From Nitrososphaerota archaeon (GTDB taxonomy: Archaea; Thermoproteota; Nitrososphaeria; Nitrososphaerales; UBA57), in the NCBI GenBank assembly GCA_013378385.1, contig JACAFS010000008.1, positions 1 to 25,780 on the forward strand: DNA of 25,780 nt, given 5' to 3'. Position 1 is the first letter of the stretch; every line of letters begins with the position of its first letter. Below the pieces are notes generated by a model that made no database searches, was not told where the DNA came from, and saw only the letters and a list, made by a program, of their open reading frames with translations. Below are positions 11,473 to 19,618 of this stretch, one piece after another. A program made the translations under genes and the position numbers.

Positions 11473-11620
11473 GGGCCCGTAGCGCAGAATTATGAAAATA
11501 ATGCGTAATCTGGATTAGCGCGGCAGAAGATAGCCGATCCTCCTAATTCATGGCGACAGCTGTAGAGATTGAGTAATCAATCTTGGTTAGAGGTCGTGAG
11601 TTCAAGTCTCACCGGGTCCG
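11473..11620 (+). tRNA. tRNA-Arg (anticodon CCT at 11542..11544) interrupted by four introns (11488..11508, 11527..11538, 11546..11557, 11564..11590)
   Basis: Five exons (11473-87, 11509-26, 11539-45, 11558-63, 11591-620) join into a 76-nt cloverleaf:
- Acceptor GGGCCCG/CGGGTCC.
- D arm GCGC-AGTCTGGATTA-GCGC.
- Anticodon arm GCAGC-CTCCTAA-GCTGT.
- Variable loop AGGTC.
- T arm GTGAG-TTCAAGT-CTCAC, with G73.
Every insertion is flanked by a 4-bp helix with 3-nt bulges (BHB geometry); pairings are listed in the findings. CCA is not encoded. Confidence 0.75.
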
Positions 11621-12315
11621 TTATCAAAATTAGTTTTGTAATAATCCAGAATTGTATTTGCTTCGATAAACGTTATGTTGTTTTCTTTGGCCAGTTGTTC
11701 ACAATCGACAGCAGATTTAGCAGTAAAGGTTTGATTGTCCAATATTTCACACATAATTACTATAGGTATTAGATTAGAGACTTCACACAGAAATAAACTA
11801 AGTTCTGTATGGCCCTCTCTTGATTTAAGGAGGCCGGGAGAACCAATGAGCATTTGTAGATGTCCTGGTGATTCAAACATAGAATGAAAATCGCGAGAGA
11901 GATTATTGTTTGAATTATAGCCTTTGCATAGTTCGTGTAAAGAAGAAATTGTGCTAGAACGTTGTAAATCTGTTGCTCCTCCGAGAGTTCGATGATTAAA
12001 TGTTATAGAATGAGTAGAACGTTGTGATGTATTTCGATTTGTATTAACAAGATTACTTAACGAGGGGGATTTTGTTTGTAATAGAATATCCCACATATAT
12101 GAGAGATTTAATTTAGAGCCGATATCCGGAGAAATACCCACACAAAGAAGGCCTCCGCCAAGTTGCCTCATTTGATTAATTTTTTTTGGAGTGACGTGTT
12201 TGGCGGCAAGCATTATGTCAGTTTCATTTTCTCGTGAATCATCATCGTGTAAGAATATAAATTCGCCATTGTGAAAATTTTCTATAATTTCAGTCATATT
12301 AGGTTGTTTGTTCAA
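11602..12315 (-). CDS. ribB: 3,4-dihydroxy-2-butanone 4-phosphate synthase (riboflavin biosynthesis)
   Basis: FIFLHDDDSRENETDIMLAAKHVTP and GGGLLCVGIS match the RibB active-site region. The likely true start is the ATG at 12297 (MTEIIENF) rather than the TTG at 12315. The last 19 nt, including the stop, are antisense to the 3' exon of tRNA-Arg. Confidence 0.85.
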   Translation of the reverse strand: MNKQPNMTEIIENFHNGEFIFLHDDDSRENETDIMLAAKHVTPKKINQMRQLGGGLLCVGISPDIGSKLNLSYMWDILLQTKSPSLSNLVNTNRNTSQRSTHSITFNHRTLGGATDLQRSSTISSLHELCKGYNSNNNLSRDFHSMFESPGHLQMLIGSPGLLKSREGHTELSLFLCEVSNLIPIVIMCEILDNQTFTAKSAVDCEQLAKENNITFIEANTILDYYKTNFDNGPGET

Positions 12316-17739: not shown

Positions 17740-18912
17740 TTGGATATTAAATCAAAGATAAAAGAAGAAGACATAACAAATCTTGCACAGAAATTAATAA
17801 GAATTCCAAGTGATGAGATTGCAGGAGAACAAGAAGTTTGTGAATATTTGTCAGATATTTTAAAATCATTAGGTATGAAAGTGAGATTACAAGAAGTTCT
17901 GCCAAAGAGACCAAATATAATTGCAGAAGTATTTGGGGGCAACAATGGAAAATCAATTATGTTTAATGGGCATATAGATACAGTTCCAATAGGAAACATA
18001 GAGAAATGGAATACAGATCCGTATAAAGCCATAATAAAAGATAACAAATTATTTGGAAGAGGTGCTACTGACATGAAGGGTTCTATTGCGTCGATGATAA
18101 TAGCAATAAAATATATCATGAATAATGTAGAAAATTTCAATGGAAAAATTATATTTACAGGAGTAATGGCAGAAGAGACGACCGGTTTAGGAACACAAAA
18201 AGTAGTAGAAGAGAAGATAAAAACAGATATGGCAATAGTTGGAGAACCTTCAGACGAAAAGATTTATCGAGCGCATAAAGGGACTTTATGGTTCAATATT
18301 TTTACATATGGGAAATTAGAACATTCAAGTGAATCAGATACAGAATCAAATAATGCAATAATTAACATGATGAAACTGATTGAGGAAATTAATAAGATTA
18401 GTAAAGAATTGGAGGGGAAAAATAACAGTTTAGTTGGTCATCCATCTATTAATGTTGGGTTGATTGAAGGAGGTACTAAACAAAACATGATTGCAGATTC
18501 ATGTAAAGTTTCGATAGATAGAAGAATATTGCCAGAAGAAGAACCCAACGAGATACTAGATGAATTAAGAGTAAGATTCGATAACCTTCGTCTAATAGAT
18601 AACAGATTGAAATTCAATATAGAAAAAGATACAGTTAGAGAGGCGGTAGAAGTTTCAGAATCAGAACCCATTGTGCAAGAAGTAAAGAGAGCTGTAAATA
18701 AAATATTAAATATAAATCCAATAGTATCAGGAATGAAAGCAACTACAGATATGTCTATATTAGTCAATCAAGGAAATATTCCATCAGTAATTTATGGACC
18801 GGGATTTATCAAACAAGCTCATACAATTGATGAATTTATCGAAGTAGAAAGACTAGTTGAATCATCGCAAGTATATGCGGAAGTATTGTTGAACATATTG
18901 ACAAATAATTGA
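17740..18912 (+). CDS. M20 family metallopeptidase (ArgE/DapE/LysK-type deacylase)
   Basis: NGHIDTVP, GRGATDMKG and MAEETTG metal-binding motifs. TTG start. Confidence 0.85.
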   Translation: MDIKSKIKEEDITNLAQKLIRIPSDEIAGEQEVCEYLSDILKSLGMKVRLQEVLPKRPNIIAEVFGGNNGKSIMFNGHIDTVPIGNIEKWNTDPYKAIIKDNKLFGRGATDMKGSIASMIIAIKYIMNNVENFNGKIIFTGVMAEETTGLGTQKVVEEKIKTDMAIVGEPSDEKIYRAHKGTLWFNIFTYGKLEHSSESDTESNNAIINMMKLIEEINKISKELEGKNNSLVGHPSINVGLIEGGTKQNMIADSCKVSIDRRILPEEEPNEILDELRVRFDNLRLIDNRLKFNIEKDTVREAVEVSESEPIVQEVKRAVNKILNINPIVSGMKATTDMSILVNQGNIPSVIYGPGFIKQAHTIDEFIEVERLVESSQVYAEVLLNILTNN

Positions 18913-18973
18913 TTTTTCATGCAACTTTAAATCAATCTTAGTACTTTTTTATTGTAGGCCGTCTGTACACGTG

Positions 18974-19076
18974 GCCGATTATTAGTCAATTCGTGGTGTA
19001 GTTGGTAGCATAGGACCCTGTGGGTCAAGAAAAGCAGATAGGTTCAGGTCGTGGGTTCGAAACCCACCGGCGGCCT
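18974..19076 (+). tRNA. tRNA-His (anticodon GTG at 19021..19023) with encoded G-1, an acceptor-stem intron (18979..18991) and a canonical 37/38 intron (19025..19040)
   Basis: The spliced form is 74 nt:
- G-1, with acceptor GCCG|TCG pairing to CGGCGGC (U5-G68 wobble).
- TG, then D arm GTGT-AGTTGGTA-GCAT.
- Anticodon arm GGACC-CTGTGGA-GGTTC.
- Variable loop AGGTC.
- T arm GTGGG-TTCGAAA-CCCAC, with C73.
G-1 opposite C73 together with GUG is the His identity set. Both introns have clean BHB geometry (see findings). Confidence 0.82.
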
Positions 19077-19120: not shown

Positions 19121-19462
19121 ATGAGGAAAGAGATTTTCTTTGGATTACTGATATTATCTATATCATTAGTAATTGTATTTGTAAATTTAGAAGTGATAAT
19201 AATTAATAGATTTGATTATCAGCCTGAAGAGATCACTATAGCTAAAGGTACAACTGTTTATTGGATTAATATGGATTTAGAGGGTCATAATATTACATCT
19301 GACGCAGGGCAAAATATAGAGAAGAATTTAACGGTACAGATAGATTTATCAGAAGATGTTAATACATTGGGAATTAGTTCCCATAAATTTAATGAAAAGG
19401 GAGAATTTCATTATTATTGTACGTTACATCCATACATGAAAGGTACAATATCAGTAAACTAA
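19121..19462 (+). CDS. Membrane-anchored type-1 (blue) copper protein, plastocyanin/amicyanin-like
   Basis: N-terminal TM helix, with copper ligands GHNI ... YYCTLHPYMKG (C-x2-H-x2-M). Confidence 0.85.
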   Translation: MRKEIFFGLLILSISLVIVFVNLEVIIINRFDYQPEEITIAKGTTVYWINMDLEGHNITSDAGQNIEKNLTVQIDLSEDVNTLGISSHKFNEKGEFHYYCTLHPYMKGTISVN

Positions 19463-19519
19463 TCAACATTAATTAAGAAAATATTTTTAATAATATGGTT
19501 TTTACTAGATATTTGTGTG

Positions 19520-19618
19520 ATGTCCGTTGCATCGACGGGCAATCTGGACTCATTTGAGGATGAAGAATCATGCGGGCATCGTACAATCAATAATAAGTGT
19601 GAAAAGATGGATTTTTAG
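19520..19618 (+). other. GC-rich island: candidate 32-codon small ORF (MSVASTGNLDSFEDEESCGHRTINNKCEKMDF) or structured 5' leader/ncRNA upstream of the CorA-like gene
   Basis: About 50% G+C by hand count over roughly 70 nt, in otherwise very AT-rich spacer. Hairpin GTCCGT-TGCATCG-ACGGGC at 19522..19540. TATA-like TTTTTAATAATAT at 19484..19496, about 27 nt upstream of the ATG. The ORF is too short to appear in the supplied track. Confidence 0.25.

What the first reader, a model, noticed from the sequence alone, without database searches (positions are those of the whole stretch)
18958..19076. tRNA-His with a 13-nt intron inside the acceptor stem, whose BHB recruits the 5' leader
The 3' acceptor strand CGGCGGC plus C73 requires G-1 and GCCG(Y)(Y)G at the 5' end. 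This is obtained only by joining 18974-18978 (G-GCCG) to 18992 onward (TCG-TG-GTGT...), which removes ATTATTAGTCAAT (18979-18991) at position 4/5. The BHB elements are:
- Central helix TGGC 18973-76 x GTCA 18986-89.
- Bulges CG|A and AT|T.
- An outer 4-bp helix formed by leader nt CACG 18969-72 with exon nt CGTG 18993-96.
Leader sequence therefore appears to be needed to present the splice sites, which implies intron removal before or coupled to 5' maturation. The canonical intron (19025-19040) has a textbook motif: anticodon stem, then CTGT 19019-22 x GCAG 19035-38, with bulges GG|G and AT|A. Acceptor-stem introns are rare, and this one disrupts the His identity region (G-1:C73).
Basis: partly seen in the sequence, partly recalled or inferred. 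Interest (0 to 1): 0.65.

Follow-up and report, generated by a model that had tools for sequence, protein, structure and literature searches.

The report
Two-intron tRNA-His gene, leader-dependent splicing
This is a histidine tRNA gene of a deep-sea thaumarchaeon, broken by two short introns; one lies inside the acceptor stem and can be presented to the splicing enzyme only with help from the transcribed leader, a rare but already described kind of archaeal tRNA intron.

Summary
True layout: G-1 at 18973, G1-G4 at 18974-77, a 13-nt intron at 18978-90 (position 4/5), exon 2 at 18991-19023 (anticodon GTG 19020-22), a 16-nt canonical intron at 19024-39, exon 3 at 19040-75 (C73).

ARAGORN calls a tRNA only after the 13-nt intron is removed, and tRNA-His(GUG) after both. 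Rfam matches only model positions 6-65.

Both introns have the same relaxed hBH motif. For the acceptor intron, the outer helix and half of the central helix come from leader nucleotides -6 to -2. That motif has a chance probability of about 3-6e-4.

Gene, intron and leader are kept in 15 related marine thaumarchaeal loci in three subclades. The 16-nt leader differs at 1 position, against about 40% in the flanks, so it is probably transcribed and constrained.

New here: the leader starts with GGCCGTC (18957-63), an exact copy of tRNA positions -1 to 6. It lies where the conserved promoter would normally place a tRNA 5' end, and it can pair with the 3' acceptor strand.

There was no covariation, no RNA data, and no more distant orthologue.

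Verdict: a new member of a known kind. Acceptor-stem introns and BHBs that reach into flanks are already described.

The parts
18923..18932 (+). Probable promoter (AACTTTAAAT, TATA-like box with its upstream AAC)
   Evidence: The block 18919-39 is almost invariant in 9 distinct orthologous sequences, while neighbouring intergenic DNA varies. It resembles AACTTTTATA at 11440-49, upstream of the other tRNA-like gene of the window. That box lies 33 nt before its G1. This one lies 34 nt before 18957. The function is inferred, not shown.
18957..18972 (+). 5' leader (about 16 nt; predicted transcription start about 18954-57), removed by RNase P between U18972 and G18973
   Evidence: It differs at 1 of 16 positions between the window and subclade c, against 33/82 in the flanks (binomial P = 0.003). 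The transcription start is inferred from promoter spacing.
18957..18963 (+). Leader copy GGCCGTC, identical to tRNA positions -1 to 6; can pair with the 3' acceptor strand 19069-75 ('surrogate acceptor strand' or ancestral exon 1)
   Evidence: It is the only GGCCGTC on the + strand of the 25.8-kb window. P = 2e-4 for an exact copy within 50 nt. It pairs with 19069-75 both in the unconstrained MFE and in the fold with both BHBs forced (worth about -14 kcal/mol). The only substitution in relatives, C18959 to T, keeps the pair as U:G.
18968..18971 (+). Leader strand (CACG, positions -6 to -3) of the outer helix h of BHB 1; pairs with CGTG 18992-95 (tRNA positions 6-9)
   Evidence: Three of the four pairs are invariant. 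The fourth (C:G) is C:A in subclade c, because position 9 is A there.
18972..18975 (+). 5' strand (TGGC; positions -2, -1, 1, 2) of the 4-bp central helix of BHB 1; pairs with GTCA 18985-88 inside the intron
   Evidence: All four pairs are invariant in 9 sequences.
18973..18977 (+). Exon 1: G-1, G1, C2, C3, G4
   Evidence: In-silico splicing gives tRNA-His with G-1:C73 and a 7-bp acceptor stem.
18978..18990 (+). Intron 1, 13 nt, position 4/5 (acceptor stem). 5' splice site G18977|A18978 lies in a 9-nt terminal loop; 3' splice site T18990|T18991 lies in the 3-nt bulge ATT 18989-91
   Evidence: Removing it is required for any tRNA call. Subclade c has a 14-nt version, and both of its changes fall in the unpaired loop.
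18991..19023 (+). Exon 2: positions 5-37 (rest of acceptor strand, D arm, anticodon stem, anticodon GTG 19020-22, G37)
19024..19039 (+). Intron 2, 16 nt, canonical position 37/38. hBH motif: anticodon stem, bulge ATA 19038-40, helix CTGT 19018-21 x GCAG 19034-37, 5' site in the loop (GG|G)
   Evidence: ARAGORN reports i(39,16) once intron 1 is removed. Helix pairs are invariant, while loop nucleotides vary between subclades.
19040..19075 (+). Exon 3: positions 38-73 (anticodon stem 3' strand, variable loop AGGTC, T arm, 3' acceptor strand CGGCGGC, discriminator C73). CCA is not encoded

Best explanation
This is a functional tRNA-His(GUG) gene of a deep-marine thaumarchaeal lineage, interrupted by two short BHB introns.

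Proposed pathway:
1. Transcription starts from the conserved AACTTTAAAT box at about 18954-57. This gives a leader of about 16 nt (inferred).
2. In the precursor, the true 5' acceptor strand cannot pair with the 3' strand. Positions -2 to 2 pair with the intron (4-bp central helix) and positions 6-9 pair with leader nucleotides -6 to -3 (outer helix). This places the 3' splice site in a closed 3-nt bulge and the 5' splice site in the terminal loop. It is the same relaxed hBH design as the canonical intron of this gene (shown by sequence).
3. Meanwhile the first 7 leader nucleotides, an exact copy of positions -1 to 6, can occupy the 3' acceptor strand. The result is a five-arm cloverleaf that keeps the two halves together (predicted by folding; function inferred).
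4. The broad-specificity (alpha-beta)2 splicing endonuclease cuts at G18977|A18978, T18990|T18991, G19023|G19024 and T19039|A19040, and RtcB-type ligase joins the exons (established pathway, not tested here).
5. Only then can the real 8-bp G-1:C73 acceptor helix form. RNase P can then remove the leader between U18972 and G18973. Splicing of intron 1 therefore has to come before 5' maturation (logical inference).
For: Gene identity:
- Rfam tRNA hit on 18992-19069, covering only model positions 6-65.
- ARAGORN calls a tRNA only after 18978-90 is deleted, and tRNA-His(gtg) with both introns deleted.

Splice sites:
- An exhaustive scan of splice-site pairs found one BHB-compatible pair that restores a tRNA: 4-bp H plus 4-bp outer helix.
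- The MFE of 18957-19005 is this motif. The outer helix there is register-shifted at G18995/G18996 and extended by further leader:D-arm pairs.
- Chance of the motif is 3-6e-4.

Conservation:
- All 15 related loci (6 genomes, 8 metagenome contigs and the window; three subclades) keep intron, leader and motif.
- Changes in intron 1 fall only in its loop.
- The leader has 1/16 differences against 33/82 in the flanks (P = 0.003).
- Exons have 2/74 differences.

Promoter: the promoter block is conserved and spaced as for the other tRNA-like gene of the window.

Leader copy: with both BHBs enforced, the best fold puts leader GGCCGUC on the 3' strand (-37.8 against an MFE of -40.7 kcal/mol).

Literature:
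- Thaumarchaeota have alpha2beta2 endonucleases and many non-canonical and double introns (PMC4090602; PMC8450103 text and supplement).
- Only (alpha-beta)2 and epsilon2 enzymes cut non-canonical introns (PMC5829648 abstract).
Against: - There are no RNA data: no transcription start, no junction or intermediate reads.
- No covariation could be tested, because the relatives are too similar (0 compensatory pairs).
- In subclade c the fourth outer-helix pair is lost (C:A).
- The BHB hairpin is not thermodynamically exceptional (z = +0.8 against shuffles), and the global MFE does not contain it.
- A second TATA-like run (CTTTTTTAT 18944-52) could place a start near 18975, which would leave no leader.
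- After splicing, the leader copy still competes with the true acceptor strand (-31.6 against -28.8 kcal/mol by nearest-neighbour rules).
- The endonuclease genes of this genome were not examined.
- tRNAscan-SE itself could not be run.
Confidence: 0.72

Rival explanations
1. The upstream copy GGCCGTC (18957-63) is the real exon 1. It is transcribed at or near the primary 5' end. A 29-nt intron is removed: 18964-92, or the equivalent 18962-90 or 18963-91. No RNase P step, or almost none, would then be needed.
For: The join gives exactly the same mature tRNA-His. The conserved promoter is spaced for a 5' end at about 18957, as at the other tRNA-like gene. The copy pairs with the 3' strand in the MFE of the whole precursor.
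Against: None of the three equivalent splice-site pairs has a BHB in either geometry. The best case is a 3-bp central helix at the very 5' end with no outer helix. In that model the conserved, motif-forming 13-nt unit and the CACG leader helix would have no role.
Confidence: 0.08
2. Two-step splicing. After the 13-nt intron is removed, the two GGCC copies pair (GGCC 18957-60 x GGCC 18973-76). A second cut at the flanking GU|C triplets then removes 16 nt, so the promoter-proximal copy becomes the mature 5' end.
For: In the spliced intermediate there is a perfect 4-bp G/C helix with symmetrical GUC triplets at positions that would restore the tRNA (derived from the sequence; the related spurious motif is listed). 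Sequential BHB formation is known for closely spaced introns (PMC8450103).
Against: Neither 'bulge' would be closed by a flanking helix. There is no outer helix because the transcript ends there, and no inner helix in UGUACACGU. So it is not an hBH or HBh' motif. It is also incompatible with the favoured fold of the intermediate.
Confidence: 0.03
3. The locus is a decaying or non-functional tRNA-His copy, for example because transcription starts near 18975 from the second T-rich box and leaves no leader. A different gene would supply tRNA-His.
For: A TATA-like CTTTTTTAT lies at 18944-52. Standard tools do not call the gene. The rest of these genomes could not be inspected.
Against: Exons, splice motifs and leader are under clear purifying selection across three subclades, while flanks differ by about 40%. 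The second T-rich box is not conserved (CTCATTTAATGA in subclade c), whereas the first box is. Each genome hit had a single match.
Confidence: 0.07

Closest known systems
Non-canonical BHB introns of Thaumarchaeota (the set modelled by Thaum-BHB-noncan.cm in tRNAscan-SE 2.0)
   Same: Same phylum. Short introns with a relaxed BHB at non-37/38 positions, often combined with a canonical intron in the same gene. The published count is 107 non-canonical introns and 39 two-intron tRNAs in 11 genomes (PMC8450103). The program extends candidates by 60 nt precisely because some BHBs near the gene ends reach into flanks.
   Different: I could not check whether a 4/5 intron in tRNA-His is in that set. 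This lineage is well separated: its M20 peptidase is at most 44% identical to any outside representative, and its tRNA-His sequence matched no other thaumarchaeal species in the genome scan.
Introns at position 3/4 in Thermoproteales tRNAs (Sugahara et al. 2008, as cited in PMC4090602)
   Same: An intron inside the 5' acceptor strand, called an 'extreme case' in the review. Geometrically it must also draw on upstream sequence for its BHB.
   Different: Different phylum, different position (4/5) and different isoacceptor. Whether those genes carry a leader copy of the acceptor strand is unknown to me, because the original paper was not available.
Split and permuted tRNA genes (Nanoarchaeum equitans split tRNA-His at 37/38; Thermofilum pendens permuted tRNAs)
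   Same: Leader or trailer sequences outside the mature tRNA build the BHB and hold the pieces together for the same endonuclease (PMC4090602, PMC3218864). An unusually long promoter-to-tRNA distance is the tell-tale sign there as well.
   Different: Here the gene is contiguous and cis-spliced. The leader is finally removed by RNase P, not by the endonuclease.

Membership tests
tRNA-His(GUG) gene | Cloverleaf with a 7-bp acceptor stem, D, anticodon and T arms after the intervening sequences are removed | tested here: met
   ARAGORN calls tRNA-His(gtg) on the in-silico spliced sequence. The Rfam tRNA model matches 18992-19069 above the gathering score.
tRNA-His(GUG) gene | Anticodon GUG, and the His identity pair G-1:C73 | tested here: met
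   GTG at 19020-22. G18973 lies opposite C19075 once exon 1 and exon 2 are joined.
tRNA-His(GUG) gene | Expressed, spliced and aminoacylated | not testable with these tools
   No RNA data. There is only indirect support from purifying selection on the exons (2/74 differences against about 40% in the flanks).
Archaeal BHB intron (relaxed hBH form) | 4-bp central helix between the two splice sites | tested here: met
   TGGC 18972-75 x GTCA 18985-88, invariant in 9 sequences. The canonical intron has CTGT x GCAG.
Archaeal BHB intron (relaxed hBH form) | 3-nt bulges with cleavage after the second bulge nucleotide, at least one bulge closed by a flanking helix, and excision restoring the exact tRNA | tested here: met
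   The 3' bulge ATT 18989-91 is closed by H and by the 4-bp outer helix (3 bp in subclade c). The 5' site CG|A lies in a 9-nt terminal loop, so this is the relaxed form, not the strict hBHBh' form. Excision gives tRNA-His.
Archaeal BHB intron (relaxed hBH form) | Base-pair covariation supporting the helices | tested here: inconclusive
   0 compensatory changes. The sequences are too similar.
Archaeal BHB intron (relaxed hBH form) | Cleavage by a splicing endonuclease of broad specificity, (alpha-beta)2 or epsilon2, encoded in the same genome | not tested
   No endonuclease gene lies in the window. The literature assigns alpha2beta2 enzymes to Thaumarchaeota (PMC4090602).
5'-proximal (acceptor-stem) non-canonical intron whose BHB uses flanking sequence | Intron within positions 1-7, with motif strands contributed by nucleotides upstream of the mature 5' end | tested here: met
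   The intron is at 4/5. Helix strands 18968-72 lie upstream of G-1.
5'-proximal (acceptor-stem) non-canonical intron whose BHB uses flanking sequence | Those upstream nucleotides are part of the primary transcript | not testable with these tools
   Inferred from the conserved promoter block 18919-39, its spacing and the conservation of the leader.
Split or permuted tRNA gene | tRNA parts encoded at separate loci or in permuted order, joined through terminal BHBs | tested here: not met
   All exons are collinear within 119 nt behind one conserved promoter.

The most novel reading that the evidence does not exclude
The leader is more than a passive partner of the BHB. Its first seven nucleotides (GGCCGUC, 18957-63) would act as a surrogate 5' acceptor strand. 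This strand pairs with the 3' acceptor strand and holds the precursor in a five-arm cloverleaf while the true strand is locked in the splice motif. After ligation it is displaced, and RNase P removes it.

A related evolutionary reading is also open. The copy sits exactly where the promoter would put a normal tRNA 5' end. It may therefore be the ancestral exon 1, with the present exon 1, the intron and the leader helix arriving as one 29-nt insertion. That would be a footprint of how an acceptor-stem intron was gained.
Probability: 0.3. Interest if true: 0.6.

Novelty: new member of a known kind. Interest (0 to 1): 0.4.

Why it matters
- The gene is missed or truncated by general tools. ARAGORN finds nothing and Rfam finds only positions 6-65. 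Genomes of this deep-sea lineage would therefore look as if they lack tRNA-His unless an archaeal-intron-aware caller is used.
- It is a clean natural case in which the order of tRNA processing is dictated by structure: splicing must come before RNase P.
- The splice motif sequesters the histidine identity element G-1.
- The leader's exact copy of the acceptor strand, if functional, would be a simple cis-acting device for keeping the exon halves together. If it is a relic, it would be a dated footprint of intron gain. Either reading can be tested with short in-vitro transcripts.

Tried and rejected
1. Alternative parse with the upstream GGCCGTC copy as exon 1. It gives the identical product but has no BHB. 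Kept only as a low-probability rival.
2. A second splicing step using the GGCC:GGCC helix. Rejected because neither bulge has a flanking helix.
3. A wider search for orthologues.
   - The genome-collection scan with a degenerate D-arm/anticodon pattern returned only 6 thaumarchaeal species of the same clade plus 4 DPANN genes.
   - The metagenome scan with a looser pattern returned the same clade plus one unrelated intron-less tRNA-His.
4. Synteny route through the neighbouring M20 peptidase. The 120 best homologues are all at least 80% identical, so they belong to the same clade. The nearest outside representative is only 44% identical, so conserved synteny seemed unlikely and I did not spend another database search.
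5. Viral-contig scan for GGCCG-N10-22-TCGTRGTGTAG. It gave at least 120 chance hits, none tRNA-His-like.
6. Covariation counting. It was uninformative. My D-stem columns in that call were mis-set by one, which does not affect the other helices.
7. Rfam on nine related loci. It found only the same truncated tRNA-His hit in each, so there are no further tRNAs to compare.
8. Brute-force intron parse of the second tRNA-like gene (11473-11610). No unique solution.
9. The original papers on 3/4 introns and SPLITSX were not in the library.

Full report
**What is there**

The window is AT-rich (about 32% G+C). It carries archaeal housekeeping genes: SRP54, Pus10, thermosome, diphthamide synthase, CofC/CofD and a cupredoxin.

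The G+C-rich island at 18957-19075 lies between an M20 peptidase gene (17740-18912) and a cupredoxin gene (19121-19462).
- ARAGORN in its default mode finds no tRNA in the window.
- Rfam finds one tRNA match, 18992-19069, just above the gathering score (30.2 against 29 bits). It covers only model positions 6-65.
- This is the picture expected when most of the 5' acceptor strand is separated from the rest of the gene.

**Check of the observation**

The true layout is:

| Feature | Coordinates |
|---|---|
| G-1 | 18973 |
| G1 C2 C3 G4 | 18974-77 |
| Intron 1, ATTATTAGTCAAT (13 nt) | 18978-90 |
| Exon 2 (positions 5-37; anticodon GTG 19020-22) | 18991-19023 |
| Intron 2, GTCAAGAAAAGCAGAT (16 nt) | 19024-39 |
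| Exon 3 (positions 38-73) | 19040-75 |
| 3' acceptor strand CGGCGGC | 19068-74 |
| Discriminator C73 | 19075 |

ARAGORN gives these results on edited sequences:
- Deleting intron 2 alone gives nothing.
- Deleting intron 1 alone gives a tRNA, read as tRNA-His with a 16-nt canonical intron in intron mode.
- Deleting both gives tRNA-His(gtg).

The mature product is a regular 74-nt tRNA-His with G-1:C73.

**The splice motifs**

I enumerated all splice-site pairs in 18930-19012 in both possible BHB geometries. BHB-like combinations are common under lax rules. Only one pair restores a tRNA: 18977|18978 with 18990|18991. Its parts are:
- Central helix TGGC 18972-75 x GTCA 18985-88.
- 3' bulge ATT 18989-91, closed on its other side by CACG 18968-71 x CGTG 18992-95.
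- 5' site (CG|A) in the 9-nt terminal loop.

This is the relaxed hBH form. The canonical intron of the same gene is built in the same way: anticodon stem, bulge ATA, helix CTGT x GCAG, and the 5' site GG|G in the loop.

Leader nucleotides -6 to -2 supply the whole 5' strand of the outer helix and the first base of the central helix. G-1, G1 and C2 supply the rest of the central helix.

With exons fixed and leader and intron randomised, the motif arises with P = 3e-4 to 6e-4.

The MFE of 18957-19005 is this motif. In it the outer helix is register-shifted at G18995/G18996 and extended by further leader:D-arm pairs. The fold is no more stable than shuffles (z = +0.8).

**Relatives**

A degenerate D-arm/anticodon pattern found six thaumarchaeal species genomes. 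Their record titles read Thaumarchaeota, Nitrososphaerales or Nitrosopumilales MAGs from marine samples. A looser pattern found eight marine metagenome contigs. They fall into three subclades.

All of them keep both introns, the leader and the motif. Subclade c (L009, L017) differs as follows:
- Intron 1 is 14 nt, and both of its changes lie in the unpaired loop.
- Position 9 is A. This breaks the fourth outer-helix pair, so 3 bp remain.
- Intron 2 has several changes, all confined to the loop and bulge positions.

There is no compensatory change anywhere, so the helices are supported by conservation only.

Between the window and L009, the presumably unconstrained stretches differ at 33 of 82 columns. 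The exons differ at 2 of 74 and the 16-nt leader at 1 of 16 (binomial P = 0.003). So the leader is constrained about as strongly as the tRNA itself. This is the best available evidence that it is transcribed and needed.

I could not reach more distant orthologues. The neighbouring peptidase has no homologue above 44% identity outside the clade.

**Promoter and transcription start (inferred)**

The block 18919-39, containing AACTTTAAAT (18923-32), is almost invariant in all relatives. A second T-rich run (18944-52) is not.

The other tRNA-like gene of the window has AACTTTTATA 33 nt before its first nucleotide. The tRNA-His box lies 34 nt before 18957 and 50 nt before G-1.

The likely start is therefore around 18954-57, which gives a leader of about 16 nt. 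An unusually long promoter-to-tRNA distance was also the clue that exposed permuted tRNAs in Thermofilum (PMC3218864).

The leader begins with GGCCGTC (18957-63). This is an exact copy of tRNA positions -1 to 6.
- It is the only occurrence of this heptamer on the + strand of the window.
- P is about 2e-4 for an exact copy within 50 nt, and about 0.01 for any 7-nt partner of the 3' strand if G:U pairs are allowed.

Three consequences follow.

1. Joining this copy to G18993 gives the very same mature tRNA. That parse has no BHB, so I keep it as a minor rival.
2. The copy can pair with the 3' acceptor strand.
   - It does so in the unconstrained MFE of the whole precursor.
   - When both BHBs are enforced, the best structure is a five-arm cloverleaf: leader copy on the 3' strand, BHB-1 hairpin, D arm, anticodon/BHB-2 arm and T arm. 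Its energy is -37.8 kcal/mol against an MFE of -40.7, and the leader helix is worth about -14 kcal/mol.
   - The only substitution in relatives, C18959 to T, keeps the pair as U:G.
3. The copy lies exactly where the promoter would put an ordinary tRNA 5' end. It may therefore be the ancestral exon 1. In that case 18964-92 would be a 29-nt insertion that brought in the present exon 1, the intron and the leader helix.

One point counts against a purely beneficial role. After splicing, the leader copy still competes with the true acceptor strand (-31.6 against -28.8 kcal/mol, ignoring tertiary structure).

**Most likely mechanism**

1. Transcription starts at about 18954-57.
2. The precursor folds with BHB 1 built from leader, exon and intron, and probably with the leader copy on the 3' strand.
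3. The (alpha-beta)2 endonuclease cuts both motifs.
4. The exons are ligated.
5. The true 8-bp G-1:C73 acceptor helix forms.
6. RNase P cuts U18972|G18973, followed by 3' trimming and CCA addition (CCA is not encoded).

The gene structure and the motif are shown by sequence and conservation. The transcription start, the order of events and the role of the leader copy are inferences. The enzymology is taken from established knowledge:
- Thaumarchaeota have alpha2beta2 endonucleases (PMC4090602).
- Only (alpha-beta)2 and epsilon2 enzymes cut non-canonical introns (PMC5829648).

**Comparison with what is known**

- Non-canonical and double introns are frequent in Thaumarchaeota. The published count is 107 non-canonical introns and 39 two-intron tRNAs in 11 genomes.
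- tRNAscan-SE 2.0 has a Thaumarchaeota-specific BHB model. [quoted passage not shown]
- An intron at 3/4 in Thermoproteales has been described as an extreme case (PMC4090602).
- Leaders that build BHBs are the rule in split and permuted tRNAs.

So this is a new member of a known kind. It is a 4/5 intron in tRNA-His of a poorly studied deep-sea lineage. Its uncommon but not unprecedented consequence is that splicing must come before 5' maturation. I did not find the leader copy of the acceptor strand described in the papers I could read, but I could not survey other acceptor-stem-intron genes.

**Verdict**

Novelty is modest and interest is 0.4. The most novel reading still open is the surrogate-strand or ancestral-exon role of 18957-63 (probability about 0.3).

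Noticed in passing
window 19515-19589 (+), between the cupredoxin gene and corA: A block of about 75 nt is conserved in all three subclades while its flanks diverge. RNAalifold predicts a 13-bp terminal stem (GUGUGAUGUCCGU with AUGCGGGCAUCGUAC), with one compensatory G-C to A-U change and several wobble-compatible changes. There is no Rfam match at E<=1. A conserved ATTTTTAAT at about 19483-90 could be its promoter. This is a candidate unnamed small RNA.
   Followed up: partly
window 11473-11610 (+): A second G+C-rich tRNA-like gene: GGGCCCG TA GCGC ... GTGAG TTCAAGT CTCAC CGGGTCC G. It has several interruptions, including an insertion of about 22 nt in the D loop. Neither ARAGORN nor Rfam detects it. 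My brute-force combination of BHB-like deletions gave no unique parse. Its promoter-like box AACTTTTATA lies at 11440-49. Its 3' end overlaps the end of the DHBP-synthase ORF on the other strand (11602-12315).
   Followed up: partly
window 18957-18976: The leader and the start of exon 1 read GGCCGTCTGTACACGTGGCC. The two self-complementary GGCC copies can pair with each other, and this is the centroid structure. The stretch also contains the palindromes TGTACA and CACGTG. This hairpin competes with the splice motif and produces a spurious BHB-like hit (splice pair 18962|18979).
   Followed up: partly
L002, L005, L007 (DPANN genomes): The tRNA-His genes of one Micrarchaeota (L002) and two Aenigmarchaeota (L005, L007) MAGs have long insertions directly after GTGG (position 37/38). 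The insertion in L005 starts with a long perfect hairpin. L010, the second Micrarchaeota MAG, has no insertion.
   Followed up: no
L013 508-534 and flanks: An intron-less tRNA-His with the same anticodon arm (GGGACCCTGTGG) but a different acceptor stem and D loop, on a short marine metagenome contig of unknown origin.
   Followed up: no
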